Positions 357 to 42,838 of a stretch of 49,530 bases of DNA are shown here, in pieces; positions within the stretch are counted from its first letter, which is position 1; the number at the start of each line of letters is the position of its first letter. Source of the DNA: Escherichia phage grams. Location: the sequence record NC_049825.1, one strand, 5' to 3'. The notes under the pieces were generated by a model, which saw only the letters and a program-made list of their open reading frames with translations, was not told where the DNA came from and searched no databases. The position numbers and the translations under genes were made by a program.

Positions 357-402
357 ATTATGCCAGGCTTTTACACCTGGCTTTTAACAAAAAGTGCTAT
401 TT
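357..402 (-). promoter_or_regulatory. conserved 22-bp element plus -10 (CATAAT), leftward
   Basis: AAATAGCACTTTTTGTTAAAAG-N18-CATAAT on minus strand; spacer CCAGGTGTAAAAGCCTGG is a hairpin-forming dyad; stop codon of methyltransferase gene lies inside element. Confidence 0.55.
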
Positions 403-2211: not shown

Positions 2212-2257
2212 AATATATCGGATCGCGAGGATTGAGTTTTAACAAAAAGTGCTATTT
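2212..2257 (-). promoter_or_regulatory. conserved 22-bp element plus -10 (TATATT), leftward
   Basis: AAATAGCACTTTTTGTTAAAAC-N18-TATATT on minus strand; 9-bp inverted repeat AATCCTCGC/GCGAGGATT flanks the -10. Confidence 0.55.
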
Positions 2258-2541: not shown

Positions 2542-2781
2542 TTAACCATGTTTAACAGCATCCAGAACATCACAGGATTCGTTAATAAACTTTGCCATGC
2601 GCTTATCATCACCAAAAGGAATTAGCGCGTTAAACTCGCGTTTGCTACTGAATACCGTCACTTTATGAAACGATGCGAACGGCATCGACGGGAACTCTAC
2701 TGTTTGCGTCAGGATCCGCAATCCCATCTTTTTGGCCCTTACCTGGGCCTCAGCGAGTTCAAAATCCACTTCATTAATCAT
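2542..2781 (-). CDS. hypothetical protein (79 aa)
   Basis: ORF; RBS GAGGAG; start overlaps stop of upstream gene (ATGA). Confidence 0.5.
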   Translation of the reverse strand: MINEVDFELAEAQVRAKKMGLRILTQTVEFPSMPFASFHKVTVFSSKREFNALIPFGDDKRMAKFINESCDVLDAVKHG

Positions 2782-3050
2782 TTCTTGATCTCCTCAGCAA
2801 TAAACTTCAGGACTTTGCGCAAAAACACTTCATTATTGATGGTCGCTGGCAATTCCTCTTTCACTTCTTGCGGCAGATAGATATTGCCGTGCCATGTCAA
2901 ACAATCGTAGTTGATACGATAAGAGCAAAGCCATTCGCAATCGTTATCCGCTTCCCAAATGCAGAGTTGCAGAACATCACCGAAATCCTCAACAGTCAGA
3001 TCCAGACCGTGACGCTTTGCAAAGTTGAAAGTGGTTTTGCTGATGTTCAT
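2778..3050 (-). CDS. hypothetical protein (90 aa), first gene of leftward operon
   Basis: ORF with RBS CAGGAGAAAGCAA; preceded by motif promoter at 3089..3134. Confidence 0.55.
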   Translation of the reverse strand: MNISKTTFNFAKRHGLDLTVEDFGDVLQLCIWEADNDCEWLCSYRINYDCLTWHGNIYLPQEVKEELPATINNEVFLRKVLKFIAEEIKK

Positions 3051-3088
3051 TTGCTTTCTCCTGATGGGTATCTCGTTTCGATGTGTGC

Positions 3089-3134
3089 ATTATGCCGAAT
3101 CCAGTCAGGCACGTTTTAACAAAAAGTGCTATTT
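3089..3134 (-). promoter_or_regulatory. conserved 22-bp element plus -10 (CATAAT), leftward
   Basis: Minus-strand reading AAATAGCACTTTTTGTTAAAAC-N18-CATAAT. Confidence 0.55.
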
Positions 3135-3786
3135 GCCTACTGGTCATTATTCCATCTATTCCATTAATCAGGAATAACAGGAATAACTCATTCGCGATCA
3201 CCTGGATTGTGAGACTTTGAGTTTGGTCAATTTTAATCAGTTGATTAACTTTTTGTGTGGAGGGGATAGAGAAACGCGGCCCTCTTGCGTCCTTTCCAGC
3301 AATCCTGGCGCGCGCATCTGTTATTTCTGTTCCCCGCGTTATCTCAATCAAGCCTCCGCACTTTGAGATAACGCAATCAGCGTTCATAAACAAAAAGAAC
3401 AAAATAAAATTTATATATATACACATAAAATCAATAAGTTAGTTATATATGTATTTATATTTGTTATTTACTGTTATGCTTGTTCTGTGGGTATATGGTA
3501 GTGTGGTATTGTTTTTGGTGATATGTATGTGTGGTTGTATACTTTTTAATCAATGGTAATGCGTGGTGATTTTTGTATGTATATATATGGGGTGGCGGCA
3601 ATCCTCCGTCAACCAGGTTAACAAGGTCATTTTTATCTGTTAAACCAATAACTTAACTTGTGCATTTTGTTATCTTTAAACGCGCCACACGCCAAAAGTC
3701 GTTATTAAAACACAAAATATATTGACATGTAGGAAAGGCAAGGCAATAATGCATCCAGTTTAAACGCAACAAAAGGAGTAGATGCC
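3135..3786. repeat. AT-rich non-coding region A (diverged paralogue of 32268..32692)
   Basis: No convincing ORF; shares AATCAATAAGTTAGT, GGTGATTTTT and TTTTGTTATCT blocks with region B. Confidence 0.6.
3722..3750 (+). promoter_or_regulatory. canonical sigma70 promoter (candidate early promoter)
   Basis: TTGACA-N17-AATAAT, about 36 bp upstream of ATG 3787. Confidence 0.6.
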
Positions 3787-4275
3787 ATGAGCGAAGAAAA
3801 TATTAGCACCATGTCGCGCAGTGAGTTCTGCGATATGCTTCGCACCCTGGGCGCGGCAATTGGTAGCGGTGAACGTAATAATGTATTCATGCCAGCACTT
3901 TTCTTGTGCGCTAACGTGGAGAACGGCGACGCAATTACAGCATCGTACATGCGCCAGGTTGTAAACCGCGTACCAGAAGTGAAGCAAAAAGGCGTGATCA
4001 GCATTAAGCGAAAGGTGACTGATGAGGGTGATGGCTTTGTGTTTACGCTCACAGAAGCCAAAAGCAAGCCACGCGTTCTGACTGGTGAAGAAATCGACGA
4101 GATCGCAGAAAAGCGCGCAGAGAAGGCGGTAAGCAAAATCCTTAATCACCTTGTAAGCGTAATGCCAAATATCACAGACCTGGAAGGCGATAAACTTGCT
4201 GGAGCGTGTGAGGCTATCGGGCGCTACCAGGATATGATTCGTAAACTCGCTGGAGGAAAAGAGGTAAAATTCTAA
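3787..4275 (+). CDS. hypothetical early protein (162 aa)
   Basis: ORF with RBS AAAGGAG; first gene downstream of sigma70 promoter. Confidence 0.6.
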   Translation: MSEENISTMSRSEFCDMLRTLGAAIGSGERNNVFMPALFLCANVENGDAITASYMRQVVNRVPEVKQKGVISIKRKVTDEGDGFVFTLTEAKSKPRVLTGEEIDEIAEKRAEKAVSKILNHLVSVMPNITDLEGDKLAGACEAIGRYQDMIRKLAGGKEVKF

Positions 4276-4319
4276 ATAGCACTTTTTGTCAAAAGTCAAA
4301 AACGATAACCAGGCATAAT
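4274..4319 (+). promoter_or_regulatory. conserved 22-bp element plus -10 (CATAAT)
   Basis: AAATAGCACTTTTTGTCAAAAG-N18-CATAAT; overlaps stop codon TAA of upstream gene. Confidence 0.55.
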
Positions 4320-5265: not shown

Positions 5266-5308
5266 ATAGCACGAATTGTTAAAACTCAAATGTGGGGCCA
5301 GGTATAAT
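5264..5308 (+). promoter_or_regulatory. conserved 22-bp element (GAATTG variant) plus -10 (TATAAT)
   Basis: AAATAGCACGAATTGTTAAAAC-N17-TATAAT; -10 flanked by near-dyad GTGGGGCC/GGCCTCAC. Confidence 0.55.
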
Positions 5309-36450: not shown

Positions 36451-37152
36451 TCAGCCGCAACAGCCAGTAGGCGGAGTCTGAGGAGTAGGCAACTTGAAGT
36501 TTACCAATTGCTCTACCTGGTTGATTTTGCAATTCAGTGCGGCGGTCTGGTTTGCCTGAGAAAGAGCAAAACGAGCCTCCTGCAACTGAGCTTTCATATC
36601 GCAAATCAGAACAGCCTGAGAATCAGCGAACTGTTGACGAATCAGATCTCGCGTTGCGTTACCTTGTCGCTCAATGTTCAGGTTAGTCTCGCAGCAACAT
36701 CTCTCAGCTGCAATCTGTGCCTGATAGGAACGCTCAAGAGCATTAACATCAGCAGCATTAATCGCAGCAACTGTCTGGTTAGTACCGCTAACAATCGCGG
36801 TATTCAGTCCGGCGAAACCTTGCACCGATGCAAGCAGGCTTTGCGTATTCTGGCTGGTAATGCCGTTAAATGTTGATGCGGCGGAGCGCTCAACGGCAAG
36901 GTTTGTGGAGTTTTGGCCTTGCAGAGTTTGCAGTCCTAGGTTGTTTACGCCTGTCTGGATGTTATTAATACCATCAAGAACAGCGTTAGCACCGACAGCA
37001 ACAGCCGCACCATCACCACCATAACCACCACGACCATTAAATCCGTTACCAAACCATGACCCAATCAGGCCGCCAACAGCACCGCCAAGACCAGCCGCGC
37101 CAGCTTCGCCACCAAAACCACCACCAGTAGGGAGTAAAGTCATATCTGACAT
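36451..37152 (-). CDS. glycine-rich, Cys-clustered protein (233 aa)
   Basis: ATG at 37152 with RBS AGAGGA; about 60-residue Gly-rich N-terminus, Gln/Asn/Thr/Ser-rich middle, CCC and CCG clusters near C-terminus. Confidence 0.55.
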   Translation of the reverse strand: MSDMTLLPTGGGFGGEAGAAGLGGAVGGLIGSWFGNGFNGRGGYGGDGAAVAVGANAVLDGINNIQTGVNNLGLQTLQGQNSTNLAVERSAASTFNGITSQNTQSLLASVQGFAGLNTAIVSGTNQTVAAINAADVNALERSYQAQIAAERCCCETNLNIERQGNATRDLIRQQFADSQAVLICDMKAQLQEARFALSQANQTAALNCKINQVEQLVNFKLPTPQTPPTGCCG

Positions 37153-42392: not shown

Positions 42393-42798
42393 TAAAGGCG
42401 ATTATCTGGAGTTTTACGAAAGAGATCCGACAGATACGCTAAAAGAGGAATCTCACCAGATCGGGGCGTTTCAATGGTTAACTTATGCTCATCCTGAATT
42501 ACTGGCATGGCATACGAAAAACGAGGGCGACAAGGGGATCGCCACCGCAATGATGGATCAGCAAGCTGGGCTTGTTAAGGGCGTAAGTGATTTTATCATC
42601 CTGATTGGATTAAAAGGTCGTTACCCGTTCGCGGCAATTGAGATGAAGCGCGTCAATAAGTCCGGCAAGGGTAAGGCTTCACCAGTCAGCAAGGACCAAA
42701 AAGCCTTCTTGCGTCGTGTGCGTGAGCTTGGCGGATTCGCTGCCGTAACATACGGATATAAGCAATTCATGATCGCGGTAGAATACATGATGAAATAG
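42379..42798 (+). CDS. VRR-NUC domain nuclease
   Basis: 139 aa; SDFIILIG...AIEMK block fits PD-(D/E)XK of VRR-NUC; overlaps helicase stop. Confidence 0.55.
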   Translation: MAMTDKGDYLEFYERDPTDTLKEESHQIGAFQWLTYAHPELLAWHTKNEGDKGIATAMMDQQAGLVKGVSDFIILIGLKGRYPFAAIEMKRVNKSGKGKASPVSKDQKAFLRRVRELGGFAAVTYGYKQFMIAVEYMMK

Positions 42799-42838
42799 CA
42801 CTTTTTGTTAAAACAGGCGCGAAGGATTGCGCCATAAT
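42793..42838 (+). promoter_or_regulatory. conserved 22-bp element plus -10 (CATAAT)
   Basis: AAATAGCACTTTTTGTTAAAAC-N18-CATAAT; spacer contains GGCGC...GCGCC dyad; stop TAG inside element. Confidence 0.55.

What the first reader, a model, noticed from the sequence alone, without database searches (positions are those of the whole stretch)
3336..3374. Perfect 10-bp inverted repeat inside region A
GCGTTATCTC (3336..3345) and GAGATAACGC (3365..3374) form a perfect 10-bp dyad separated by 19 nt, inside otherwise AT-rich non-coding DNA and upstream of the early promoter. This is long enough to be a protein-binding operator or a stable RNA hairpin. No equivalent was seen in region B.
Basis: seen in the sequence. 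Interest (0 to 1): 0.4.

Follow-up and report, generated by a model that had tools for sequence, protein, structure and literature searches.

The report
Paired protein-binding sites near phage packaging end
The inverted repeat is real, but it is best read as two facing copies of a short repeated DNA motif (YGTTAT) that probably binds the phage's own first early protein, in the non-coding control region of a T1-like coliphage; it shows no sign of being an RNA hairpin.

Summary
The repeat exists and is longer than reported: 12-bp perfect arms (3336-3347 / 3363-3374) with a 15-nt spacer, the longest perfect dyad in the window. It is only modestly unlikely by chance (15% of simulated genomes).

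The window is a Hanrivervirus-like T1-family phage. The dyad lies in the 736-bp divergent intergenic region.

In 18 close relatives only GTTAT(C)/GATAAC and the spacer core AAGCCTCCGCA(C) are fixed. Other stem positions break without compensation. There is no Rfam hit, no U-tract and no promoter upstream, so an RNA hairpin is not supported.

The arms are copies of a YGTTAT motif: 8 copies against 1.6 expected. The left arm is the third of three direct repeats spaced 9 bp apart.

This layout recurs across Drexlerviridae, with a lineage-specific motif: repeats, a CCGC core, more repeats, an AT-rich block, a promoter, then a DUF7174 gene.

TerS, primase and helicase do not vary with the motif. 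The adjacent DUF7174 protein does. It is predicted to be winged-helix-like, and its putative recognition helix tracks the motif (RQ/RG with GTTAT; RT/RM with GTTC/GTTT).

Probable packaging ends lie about 70 nt to the left.

Best reading: iteron-like or operator sites for DUF7174, possibly the unknown replication origin. Binding is inferred, not shown.

The parts
3336..3347 (+). Left arm of the dyad, GCGTTATCTCAA. It is also the third (core-proximal) unit of three direct YGTTNN repeats spaced 9 bp apart.
   Evidence: GTTAT is invariant in 18 relatives.
3363..3374 (-). Right arm, TTGAGATAACGC: an inverted copy of the same unit.
   Evidence: GATAAC is invariant in 18 relatives; TTGAG becomes TTTAG, TTCAG or another non-pairing variant (BEK7) in 7 of 18 without compensation.
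3350..3361 (.). Spacer core AAGCCTCCGCAC. Its TCCGC(A/G) centre is the most widely conserved piece; it is found at the same place in most of the distant Drexlerviridae examined, but not in T1.
3318..3333 (+). Two further direct units, CTGTTAT (3318-3324) and CTGTTCC (3327-3333), 9 bp apart and in phase with the left arm.
   Evidence: The same three-repeat layout is seen in aaroes, L087 and L088.
3147..3187 (.). Second, imperfect dyad built of GTTATTCC-type units: TTATTCCATCTATTCC / GGAATAACAGGAATAA(C).
   Evidence: (I11).
3259..3275 (.). Conserved G-rich motif GGAGGGGATAGAGAAAC, the probable pac cleavage zone. GenBank records of haarsle, G29-2 and PHB17 begin at window-equivalent 3260, 3268 and 3269.
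   Evidence: PhageTerm ends of MSK and SU57 lie at the equivalent distance from the AT-rich block.
3385..3595 (.). A-rich run (AACAAAAAGAACAAAAT, 3389-3405) followed by an AT-rich block of about 200 bp. The block holds further TGTTAT units at 3462 and 3472.
   Evidence: The block is present in all relatives.
3598..3613 (+). Second core-like copy, GCAATCCTCCGTCAAC, at the right edge of the AT-rich block.
   Evidence: (D16).
3633..3710 (.). Right-hand units: TGTTAA (3637), AATAAC (3647, inverted), TGTTAT (3668), CGTTAT (3700).
3722..3750 (+). Sigma-70-like rightward early promoter, TTGACA-17-AATAAT.
   Evidence: 11 of 12 matches.
3787..4275 (+). First rightward gene: a DUF7174 protein of 162 aa, the proposed cognate DNA-binding protein.
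3114..3132 (-). Leftward copy of the 21-nt T1-family repeat ATAGCACTTTTTGTTAAAA, upstream of the gene at 2778-3050 (-).
   Evidence: PMC11447400.

Best explanation
The dyad is a DNA-level element. It consists of two inverted copies of a lineage-specific short repeat, YGTTAT(C), flanking a family-wide conserved TCCGC core.

The left arm is the last of three direct repeats spaced one helical turn apart. More copies lie across the whole 3147-3710 interval, on both sides of a ~200-bp AT-rich block.

The most likely reader of these sites is the product of the adjacent first early gene (3787-4275, DUF7174). This small protein has a predicted winged-helix-like N-domain and a helical C-terminal part. 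Several copies bound in phase would build a nucleoprotein complex next to the packaging end of the genome.

What that complex does is the least certain step. I favour an origin-like initiator/iteron/AT-rich arrangement. Autoregulation of the two divergent early promoters is the close alternative.

Shown:
- the repeat and its conservation pattern;
- the motif enrichment;
- the conserved architecture;
- the co-occurrence and co-variation with DUF7174.

Inferred:
- binding by DUF7174;
- the winged-helix assignment.

Speculative:
- origin function.
For: 1. Conservation pattern. In 18 close relatives only GTTAT(C)/GATAAC and the spacer core are fixed. The outer G:C pair exists in the window alone, and pair 10 is broken in 7 of 18. 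Covariation does not exceed the shuffled controls.

2. Motif enrichment. YGTTAT occurs 8 times in 736 bp, against 1.63 +/- 1.29 in dinucleotide shuffles (P = 0.0005). That is six times the density of the rest of the genome, and the 3000-3500 bin is the top 500-nt bin genome-wide.

3. The damhaus variant. At the same place damhaus carries four direct and three inverted TGTTAT units, 11 copies in 676 bp, and has its own dyad.

4. Conserved architecture with a lineage-specific motif. The same layout recurs in T1 (CGATTAAC), TLS (CGTTCAC/GTGAACA), SU57 (GTATAC), aaroes (YGTTCA/TGTTTC), L073 (TGTTTA), L087 and L088.

5. Proteome comparison with JakobBernoulli, aaroes and damhaus.
- TerS: 99-100% identical in JakobBernoulli and aaroes; 91% in damhaus over a longer ORF that includes upstream sequence.
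- TerL: 99%.
- Primase: 97-99%.
- Helicase: 98-100%.
- Annotated regulator: 100%.
- DUF7174: 96 / 35 / 24%.

6. Co-occurrence. The phage records whose DUF7174 is at least 56.7% identical to the window's are the same phages that keep the GTTATCT..AGATAAC dyad. This includes phages where the intervening DNA is no longer alignable.

7. Position. A DUF7174 gene directly follows the region in SU57, Rtp, TLS, aaroes and damhaus, and weakly in T1; a few phages carry one extra gene in between.

9. Residue-to-base correlation. The putative recognition helix Y-x-R-Q/G goes with 6-12 YGTTAT copies in four clades, including damhaus at only 24% overall identity. Y-x-R-T/M goes with 0-2 copies, even in proteins closer overall (35-39%) to the window's.

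10. Literature. The origin of T1-like phages has not been found (PMC7718038; PMC11447400).
Against: - No binding has been measured.
- The DUF7174 gene and the repeats are physically linked within 400-700 bp. Co-inheritance could therefore be linkage inside one mosaic module rather than function.
- The helix-residue/motif correlation rests on few independent lineages.
- One group (L078/79/82/83) could not be scored cleanly because an extra gene lies upstream.
- The dyad itself is not universal: aaroes has only direct repeats.
- The half-site centres are 27 bp apart, about 2.6 helical turns, so a single symmetric dimer cannot span them.
- DUF7174 could instead be a fast-evolving host-takeover protein.
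- GC skew gives no independent origin signal; it simply follows gene orientation.
Confidence: 0.5

Rival explanations
1. It is part of the pac site. The repeated units are small-terminase (TerS) recognition sites that position the first packaging cut about 70 nt to the left, as with the repeated boxes of SPP1 pacL/pacR or the hexamers of P1 pac.
For: - Literature places pac in this untranslated region in T1-like phages. In TLS it was located by restriction mapping; the SU57 genome end was inferred with PhageTerm (PMC11447400; PMC7718038).
- The T1, TLS, Rtp and SU57 records start 460-590 nt upstream of the DUF7174 gene.
- The MSK PhageTerm end lies about 127 nt left of its AT-rich block.
- Records from three different laboratories start at window-equivalent 3260, 3268 and 3269.
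Against: - TerS is 99-100% identical in JakobBernoulli and aaroes, and 91% in damhaus over a longer ORF that includes upstream sequence. Yet these phages differ in repeat motif and in dyad presence.
- Record starts are soft evidence: G29-2 was 'arranged according to' published relatives.
- The TLS pac position was chosen by similarity to P22.
Confidence: 0.15
2. The sites are operators only. DUF7174, or another early protein, is a transcription regulator that tunes the two divergent early promoters, and there is no replication role.
For: - The units extend towards both promoters: 3169-3187 near the leftward 21-nt repeat at 3114-3132, and 3668 and 3700 just upstream of the -35 at 3722.
- The putative binder is the first gene of the operon it would control, a common autoregulatory layout (established knowledge, e.g. 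Cro, RepA).
Against: - No unit overlaps a -35 or -10 hexamer.
- The densest array, including the dyad, is about 350 nt from the rightward promoter and about 200 nt from the leftward one.
- This reading does not explain the large conserved AT-rich block between the arrays.
Confidence: 0.2
3. The dyad acts as a structure in DNA: a cruciform, or a single-strand hairpin used as a priming or loading signal once the neighbouring AT-rich block melts.
For: - The ssDNA hairpin is stable: -11.7 kcal/mol, z -7.1.
- damhaus has a different dyad of similar stability at the same position: -11.4 kcal/mol, z -5.2.
- BEK7 keeps extended complementarity with different inner bases, GCCA/TGGC.
Against: - Seven of 18 close relatives carry an uncompensated mismatch in the stem.
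- aaroes has no dyad (z 0.08).
- The spacer is more conserved than most of the stem.
Confidence: 0.08
4. It is a transcribed RNA hairpin: a terminator, attenuator or small RNA.
For: The RNA fold is stable on both strands (-19.1 and -21.5 kcal/mol).
Against: - No Rfam match even at E <= 10.
- No T-run after the stem on either strand, and the terminator scan does not call it.
- It lies upstream of both outward promoters.
- There is no significant covariation.
Confidence: 0.03
5. It is a chance palindrome with no function of its own. Only the individual repeat units and the core matter.
For: - A perfect 12-bp inverted repeat arises in 15% of simulated genomes.
- The perfect 12-bp form is unique to this window (1 of 18).
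- A congeneric phage does without any dyad.
Against: - The inverted GATAAC arm is invariant in 18 relatives spanning DUF7174 identities from 57 to 99%.
- An independent module type (damhaus) also has inverted units at this spot.
Confidence: 0.1

Closest known systems
Iteron-type replication origins with an adjacent initiator gene (phage lambda ori/O protein; plasmid RepA/RepE/pi origins)
   Same: - Several short repeats of one motif in helical phase.
- Some repeats are in inverted orientation.
- The repeats lie next to an AT-rich block.
- Motif specificity changes together with a neighbouring small DNA-binding-type protein, as a mosaic module.
   Different: - The repeat units are only about 6-9 bp, against 19-22 bp in the known systems.
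- The sites lie upstream of the gene rather than inside it, as in lambda O.
- The protein has one predicted winged-helix-like domain and 150-190 aa, not two WH domains.
- No DnaA boxes were noted. I did not scan this window for them; none were reported in SU57 or TLS.
- Origin activity is untested.
pac sites built from repeated short boxes (P1 pac hexamers; SPP1 pacL/pacC/pacR)
   Same: Repeated short units lie on both sides of a central conserved segment, close to the probable first packaging cut, in a headful-packaging phage.
   Different: - TerS does not vary with the motif.
- The probable cut lies about 70 nt outside the array rather than between the arrays.
- The terS gene is about 7.5 kb away.
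Divergent-promoter operator arrays of phage early regulators (e.g. Cro/CI-type operators)
   Same: Dyad-symmetric sites lie in a divergent early control region, with the candidate binder encoded by the first gene.
   Different: - The half-site centres are 27 bp apart.
- The sites do not overlap the promoter hexamers.
- A ~200-bp AT-rich block separates the site clusters.
21-nt intergenic repeat of TLS and T1-like phages (aaATAGCACnnnTTGnTAAAA)
   Same: It is present in this same region (3114-3132) and is a described, unexplained repeat of the family (PMC11447400).
   Different: It is a different motif with a different distribution: 18 copies genome-wide, each upstream of genes and pointing with transcription. 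The dyad is not a copy of it.

Membership tests
Intrinsic (rho-independent) terminator | GC-rich stem with a short loop, followed by a U/T run | tested here: not met
   The loop is 15 nt and no T-run follows on either strand. The scan does not report it.
Any curated structured RNA family (Rfam 15) | Covariance-model match | tested here: not met
   No match up to E = 10 in 2800-4000, both strands.
Conserved RNA helix | Compensatory changes keep the pairing across relatives | tested here: not met
   85.6% of cells are paired, against 84.7% in shuffles. There are 2 double changes, both at the outer two pairs, and 88 of 500 shuffles do as well. Pair 10 is broken in 7 of 18.
Iteron-type replication origin | Multiple copies of one short motif, in helical phase | tested here: met
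   Three direct units lie at 3318, 3327 and 3336, 9 bp apart. There are 8 YGTTAT copies against 1.6 expected, P = 0.0005. damhaus has 11 copies.
Iteron-type replication origin | Adjacent AT-rich unwinding region | tested here: met
   An AT-rich block runs from about 3385 to 3595, directly right of the array, and is conserved in all relatives.
Iteron-type replication origin | A cognate initiator whose specificity matches the iterons | tested here: inconclusive
   DUF7174 co-occurs and co-varies with the motif. However, it is physically linked to the repeats, and binding is untested.
Iteron-type replication origin | Replication starts here | not testable with these tools
   This needs marker-frequency or 2D-gel mapping in infected cells. 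GC skew follows gene orientation only.
pac site recognised by TerS | A genome terminus of the first headful lies nearby | tested here: inconclusive
   Record starts fall at window-equivalent 3260, 3268 and 3269. PhageTerm ends of MSK and SU57 lie at the equivalent position. No reads are available for this phage.
pac site recognised by TerS | TerS specificity tracks the recognition sequence | tested here: not met
   TerS is 99-100% identical in JakobBernoulli and aaroes, and 91% in damhaus over a longer ORF, although these phages differ in motif and dyad.
Winged-helix DNA-binding proteins (for DUF7174) | H1-B1-H2-H3-B2-B3 fold with a recognition helix | tested here: inconclusive
Protein-coding gene on the minus strand (ORF 2989-3426) | Conserved frame and a codon-position bias in substitutions | tested here: not met
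   Variable columns are 14/15/17 by codon position. The open frame ranges from 64 to 215 codons in relatives, and annotations disagree.

The most novel reading that the evidence does not exclude
DUF7174 is the origin-binding initiator of T1-like phages (Drexlerviridae), whose origin is so far unidentified. On this reading the origin is the set of YGTTNN arrays, the TCCGC core and the AT-rich block next to the pac end. One residue of the recognition helix (Q/G versus T/M at window residue 57) would set the base preference at motif positions 5-6. The dyad in this window would then be a pair of converging initiator sites bracketing the core.
Probability: 0.25. Interest if true: 0.7.

Novelty: new member of a known kind. 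Interest (0 to 1): 0.42.

Why it matters
T1 is one of the classic coliphages, yet recent specialist papers state that no origin and no iterons have been found in the family (PMC11447400, PMC7718038).

If the YGTTNN arrays and DUF7174 form a cognate pair, three things follow.
- A family of unknown function that opens the rightward early gene block in most Drexlerviridae examined here would gain a testable role.
- There would be a concrete candidate for the origin or early control switch.
- There would be a simple residue-to-base specificity rule that swap experiments can check.

For the dyad itself the message is more modest. It is an ordinary arrangement of binding sites, not a new RNA or a new kind of element.

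Tried and rejected
- **Known RNA family:** the Rfam scan at a permissive threshold found nothing.
- **Terminator or promoter:** the consensus scan found no terminator at the dyad. The only nearby promoter-like site is a weak 9/12 match at 3383-3410 inside AT-rich DNA.
- **Half-site elsewhere in the window:** not above chance.
- **Minus-strand ORF 2989-3426**, annotated as a hypothetical protein in some relatives: rejected on substitution pattern and frame instability.
- **Covariation test of the 12-bp helix:** no support.
- **TerS, TerL, primase, helicase, the annotated 'transcriptional regulator' and the small 'DNA-binding protein' as readers of the motif:** all are 88-100% identical across phages with different motifs.
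- **GC skew as an origin marker:** it follows gene orientation only.
- **More relatives from IMG/VR by a flanking-sequence pattern:** only three loci came back, all already in hand.
- **Literature on DUF7174/PF23796:** none. A search for PHB17 found nothing relevant. The G29-2 paper shows that its start was set by convention, not measured.
- **Defence-system models on the flanking proteins:** nothing meaningful.
- **Profile of DUF7174 against PDB sequences:** nothing.

Full report
**What is there.** The complementarity runs two pairs further inward. The arms are therefore 12 bp (3336-3347 and 3363-3374) with a 15-nt spacer.

It is the longest perfect inverted repeat with a 3-30 nt spacer in the window. 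Markov simulations give one this long in 15% of genomes, so length alone is only suggestive. Either strand would fold stably as RNA or as DNA.

**Where it is.** The window is a T1-like phage of the Hanrivervirus group (Drexlerviridae). Over 3000-3800 it is about 93% identical to phages JLBYU41 and Henu8.

The dyad lies in a 736-bp gap between divergent early gene blocks. The gene at 2778-3050 runs leftward and the gene at 3787-4275 runs rightward. A near-consensus sigma-70 promoter sits at 3722-3750. A leftward copy of the family's known 21-nt repeat sits at 3114-3132 (PMC11447400). The dyad is thus upstream of both promoters.

Some relatives annotate a minus-strand ORF across the dyad. It is not a gene. 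Its substitutions show no codon-position bias, and the open frame varies from 64 to 215 codons among relatives.

**It is not an RNA element.**
- No Rfam family matches, even at E = 10.
- No T-run follows the stem.
- In an alignment of 18 close relatives only GTTAT(C)/GATAAC and the spacer core AAGCCTCCGCA(C) are fixed.
- The outermost G:C pair is unique to this window.
- The second pair is T:A in 13 relatives and unpaired in 4.
- The C:G at pair 10 is broken in 7 of 18 with no compensation.
- Covariation measures do not exceed shuffled controls.

This is the pattern of two sequence-specific half-sites, not of a helix.

**The arms belong to a repeat family.** YGTTAT occurs 8 times in the intergenic region, against 1.6 expected from dinucleotide shuffles (P = 0.0005). 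That is six-fold the density of the rest of the genome.

The left arm is the third of three direct units spaced 9 bp apart: CTGTTATTT / CTGTTCCCC / GCGTTATCT at 3318, 3327 and 3336. The right arm is an inverted unit on the other side of the spacer core. Further units lie inside and to the right of the AT-rich block, at 3462, 3472, 3668 and 3700. A second, imperfect dyad of GTTATTCC units lies at 3147-3187.

In phage damhaus, DNA homology to the window stops at about 3331. The dyad there is replaced by four direct and three inverted TGTTAT units, which form their own dyad. In aaroes, of the same genus, the three direct repeats and the core remain, but the motif is YGTTCA/TGTTTC and there is no dyad.

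**The layout is family-wide and the motif is lineage-specific.** Across distant Drexlerviridae the order is:
1. the leftward 21-nt repeat;
2. a G-rich motif;
3. about three phased short repeats;
4. a TCCGC core (not seen in T1);
5. more repeats;
6. an A-rich run and a ~200-bp AT-rich block;
7. a second core-like copy and more repeats;
8. a promoter;
9. a DUF7174 gene, preceded by one extra gene in a few phages.

The repeat motif differs between lineages:
- CGATTAAC in T1;
- CGTTCAC/GTGAACA in TLS;
- GTATAC in SU57;
- TGTTTA in L073;
- CGTTCC and similar in L087 and L088.

**Which protein reads the motif?** I compared every ORF of the window with JakobBernoulli (same dyad), aaroes and damhaus.

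| Protein | Identity across the three phages |
|---|---|
| TerS | 99-100% (91% in damhaus over a longer ORF that includes upstream sequence) |
| TerL | 99% |
| Primase | 97-99% |
| Helicase | 98-100% |
| Annotated regulator | 100% |
| First rightward gene (DUF7174) | 96 / 35 / 24% |

Only the first rightward gene follows the module. It is a Pfam DUF7174 protein.

In the phage collection, the records whose DUF7174 is at least 56.7% identical to the window's are the same phages that keep the GTTATCT..AGATAAC dyad. The next-best proteins are 43% identical. The matching set includes Fulano1, A16a and morffagbaw. In those three the DNA between the dyad and the gene is no longer alignable, and an extra gene is inserted.

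The putative recognition helix is residues 52-59. The fold model places them as the third helix of the winged-helix topology. The family alignment shows Y54 and R61 invariant, and R56 and N60 nearly so.
- Helices reading Y-x-R-Q (window, L004/L007, damhaus) or Y-x-R-G (the BEK7/L010 clade) go with 6-12 YGTTAT copies.
- Helices reading Y-x-R-T or Y-x-R-M go with 0-2 copies and with GTTC/GTTT-type repeats.

The window protein is closer overall to the RT proteins (35-39%) than to the damhaus protein (24%). The motif therefore follows the helix residue and not overall relatedness.

This is the main positive evidence for DUF7174 as the binder. It is correlative and rests on few independent lineages. 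It is also confounded by physical linkage.

**Relation to packaging.** Literature places pac in this untranslated region in T1-like phages (PMC7718038; PMC11447400).
- The T1, TLS, Rtp and SU57 records begin 460-590 nt upstream of the DUF7174 gene.
- The PhageTerm end of MSK (position 36,862; PMC8421802) falls about 127 nt left of its AT-rich block.
- Records from three different laboratories start within 10 nt of each other at a conserved G-rich motif: haarsle at window-equivalent 3260, G29-2 at 3268 and PHB17 at 3269.

The first packaging cut is therefore probably about 70 nt left of the dyad. TerS is nearly invariant while the motif changes, so I rate TerS recognition of the dyad as a minority reading.

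**What the complex does.** Phased repeats on both sides of an AT-rich block, with a co-varying small DNA-binding-type protein encoded alongside, is the classic origin/initiator layout. Recent papers say that no origin or iterons have been found in this family.

Autoregulation of the divergent early promoters is the close alternative. A structural role for the dyad in DNA cannot be excluded, because damhaus has an independent dyad of similar stability.

No binding, replication or packaging data exist for this element. The functional assignment stays inference.

**Verdict.**
- Its 'operator' reading is supported indirectly, and its 'RNA hairpin' reading is not.
- The dyad itself is an ordinary pairing of binding sites.
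- The more interesting result is the context: an undescribed iteron-like array coupled to DUF7174 at the packaging-proximal end of T1-like genomes. It is directly testable.

Noticed in passing
window, 18 sites, e.g. 382-400(-), 2237-2255(-), 3114-3132(-), 4276-4294(+), 5266-5284(+), 42795-42813(+): The repeat ATAGCACNNNTTGNTAAAA occurs 18 times, against 0.18 expected. Nearly all copies point in the local direction of transcription. It is the '21-nt intergenic repeat' described for TLS, whose function is still unknown. One copy directly follows the DUF7174 stop codon.
   Followed up: partly
window 3259-3275: A conserved G-rich motif, GGAGGGGATAGAGAAAC. The GenBank records of haarsle, G29-2 and PHB17, from three laboratories, start at window-equivalent 3260, 3268 and 3269. 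PhageTerm ends of MSK and SU57 lie at the equivalent distance from the AT-rich block. This is the probable pac cut.
   Followed up: partly
window 3147-3162 / 3171-3186: A second imperfect dyad, TTATTCCATCTATTCC / GGAATAACAGGAATAA, made of tandem GTTATTCC-type units. It lies just upstream of the leftward 21-nt repeat.
   Followed up: no
window 3598-3613: A second copy of the core-like sequence (GCAATCCTCCGTC) at the right edge of the AT-rich block. GCAATCCT also occurs at 3299-3306. Distant relatives likewise have a TCCGC-type element on both sides of the block.
   Followed up: partly
It is made almost entirely of A and T.
   Followed up: no
phage collection, MG0656xx records (e.g. L061, L065): About 20 'UNVERIFIED Campylobacter phage' records are Hanrivervirus-type coliphage genomes, 85-95% identical to this window in the intergenic region. 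The host attribution looks doubtful.
   Followed up: no
DUF7174 alignment A2 (window 3787-4275 and relatives): The protein is itself mosaic. The first ~45 residues and the last ~60 residues swap independently among phages, while the central helix-wing segment (residues ~48-100) stays nearly identical in all phages that carry the dyad.
   Followed up: partly
relatives' annotations over window-equivalent 3100-3430 (L001, L056, L057, L058, L060, L064): A minus-strand 'hypothetical protein' is annotated over the dyad, with different boundaries in each record and none in several. It is most likely a gene-caller artefact in non-coding DNA.
   Followed up: yes
L048 (phage T1) 121-208 and 395-428: T1 carries its own repeat set at the same positions: CGATTACGATTACG, an inverted pair GATTGCG/CGCAATC 28 nt apart, and three tandem CGATTAACA units just upstream of its rightward promoter. 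Its first gene, ST77, matches DUF7174 only weakly (E 2e-4, below the Pfam cut-off).
   Followed up: partly
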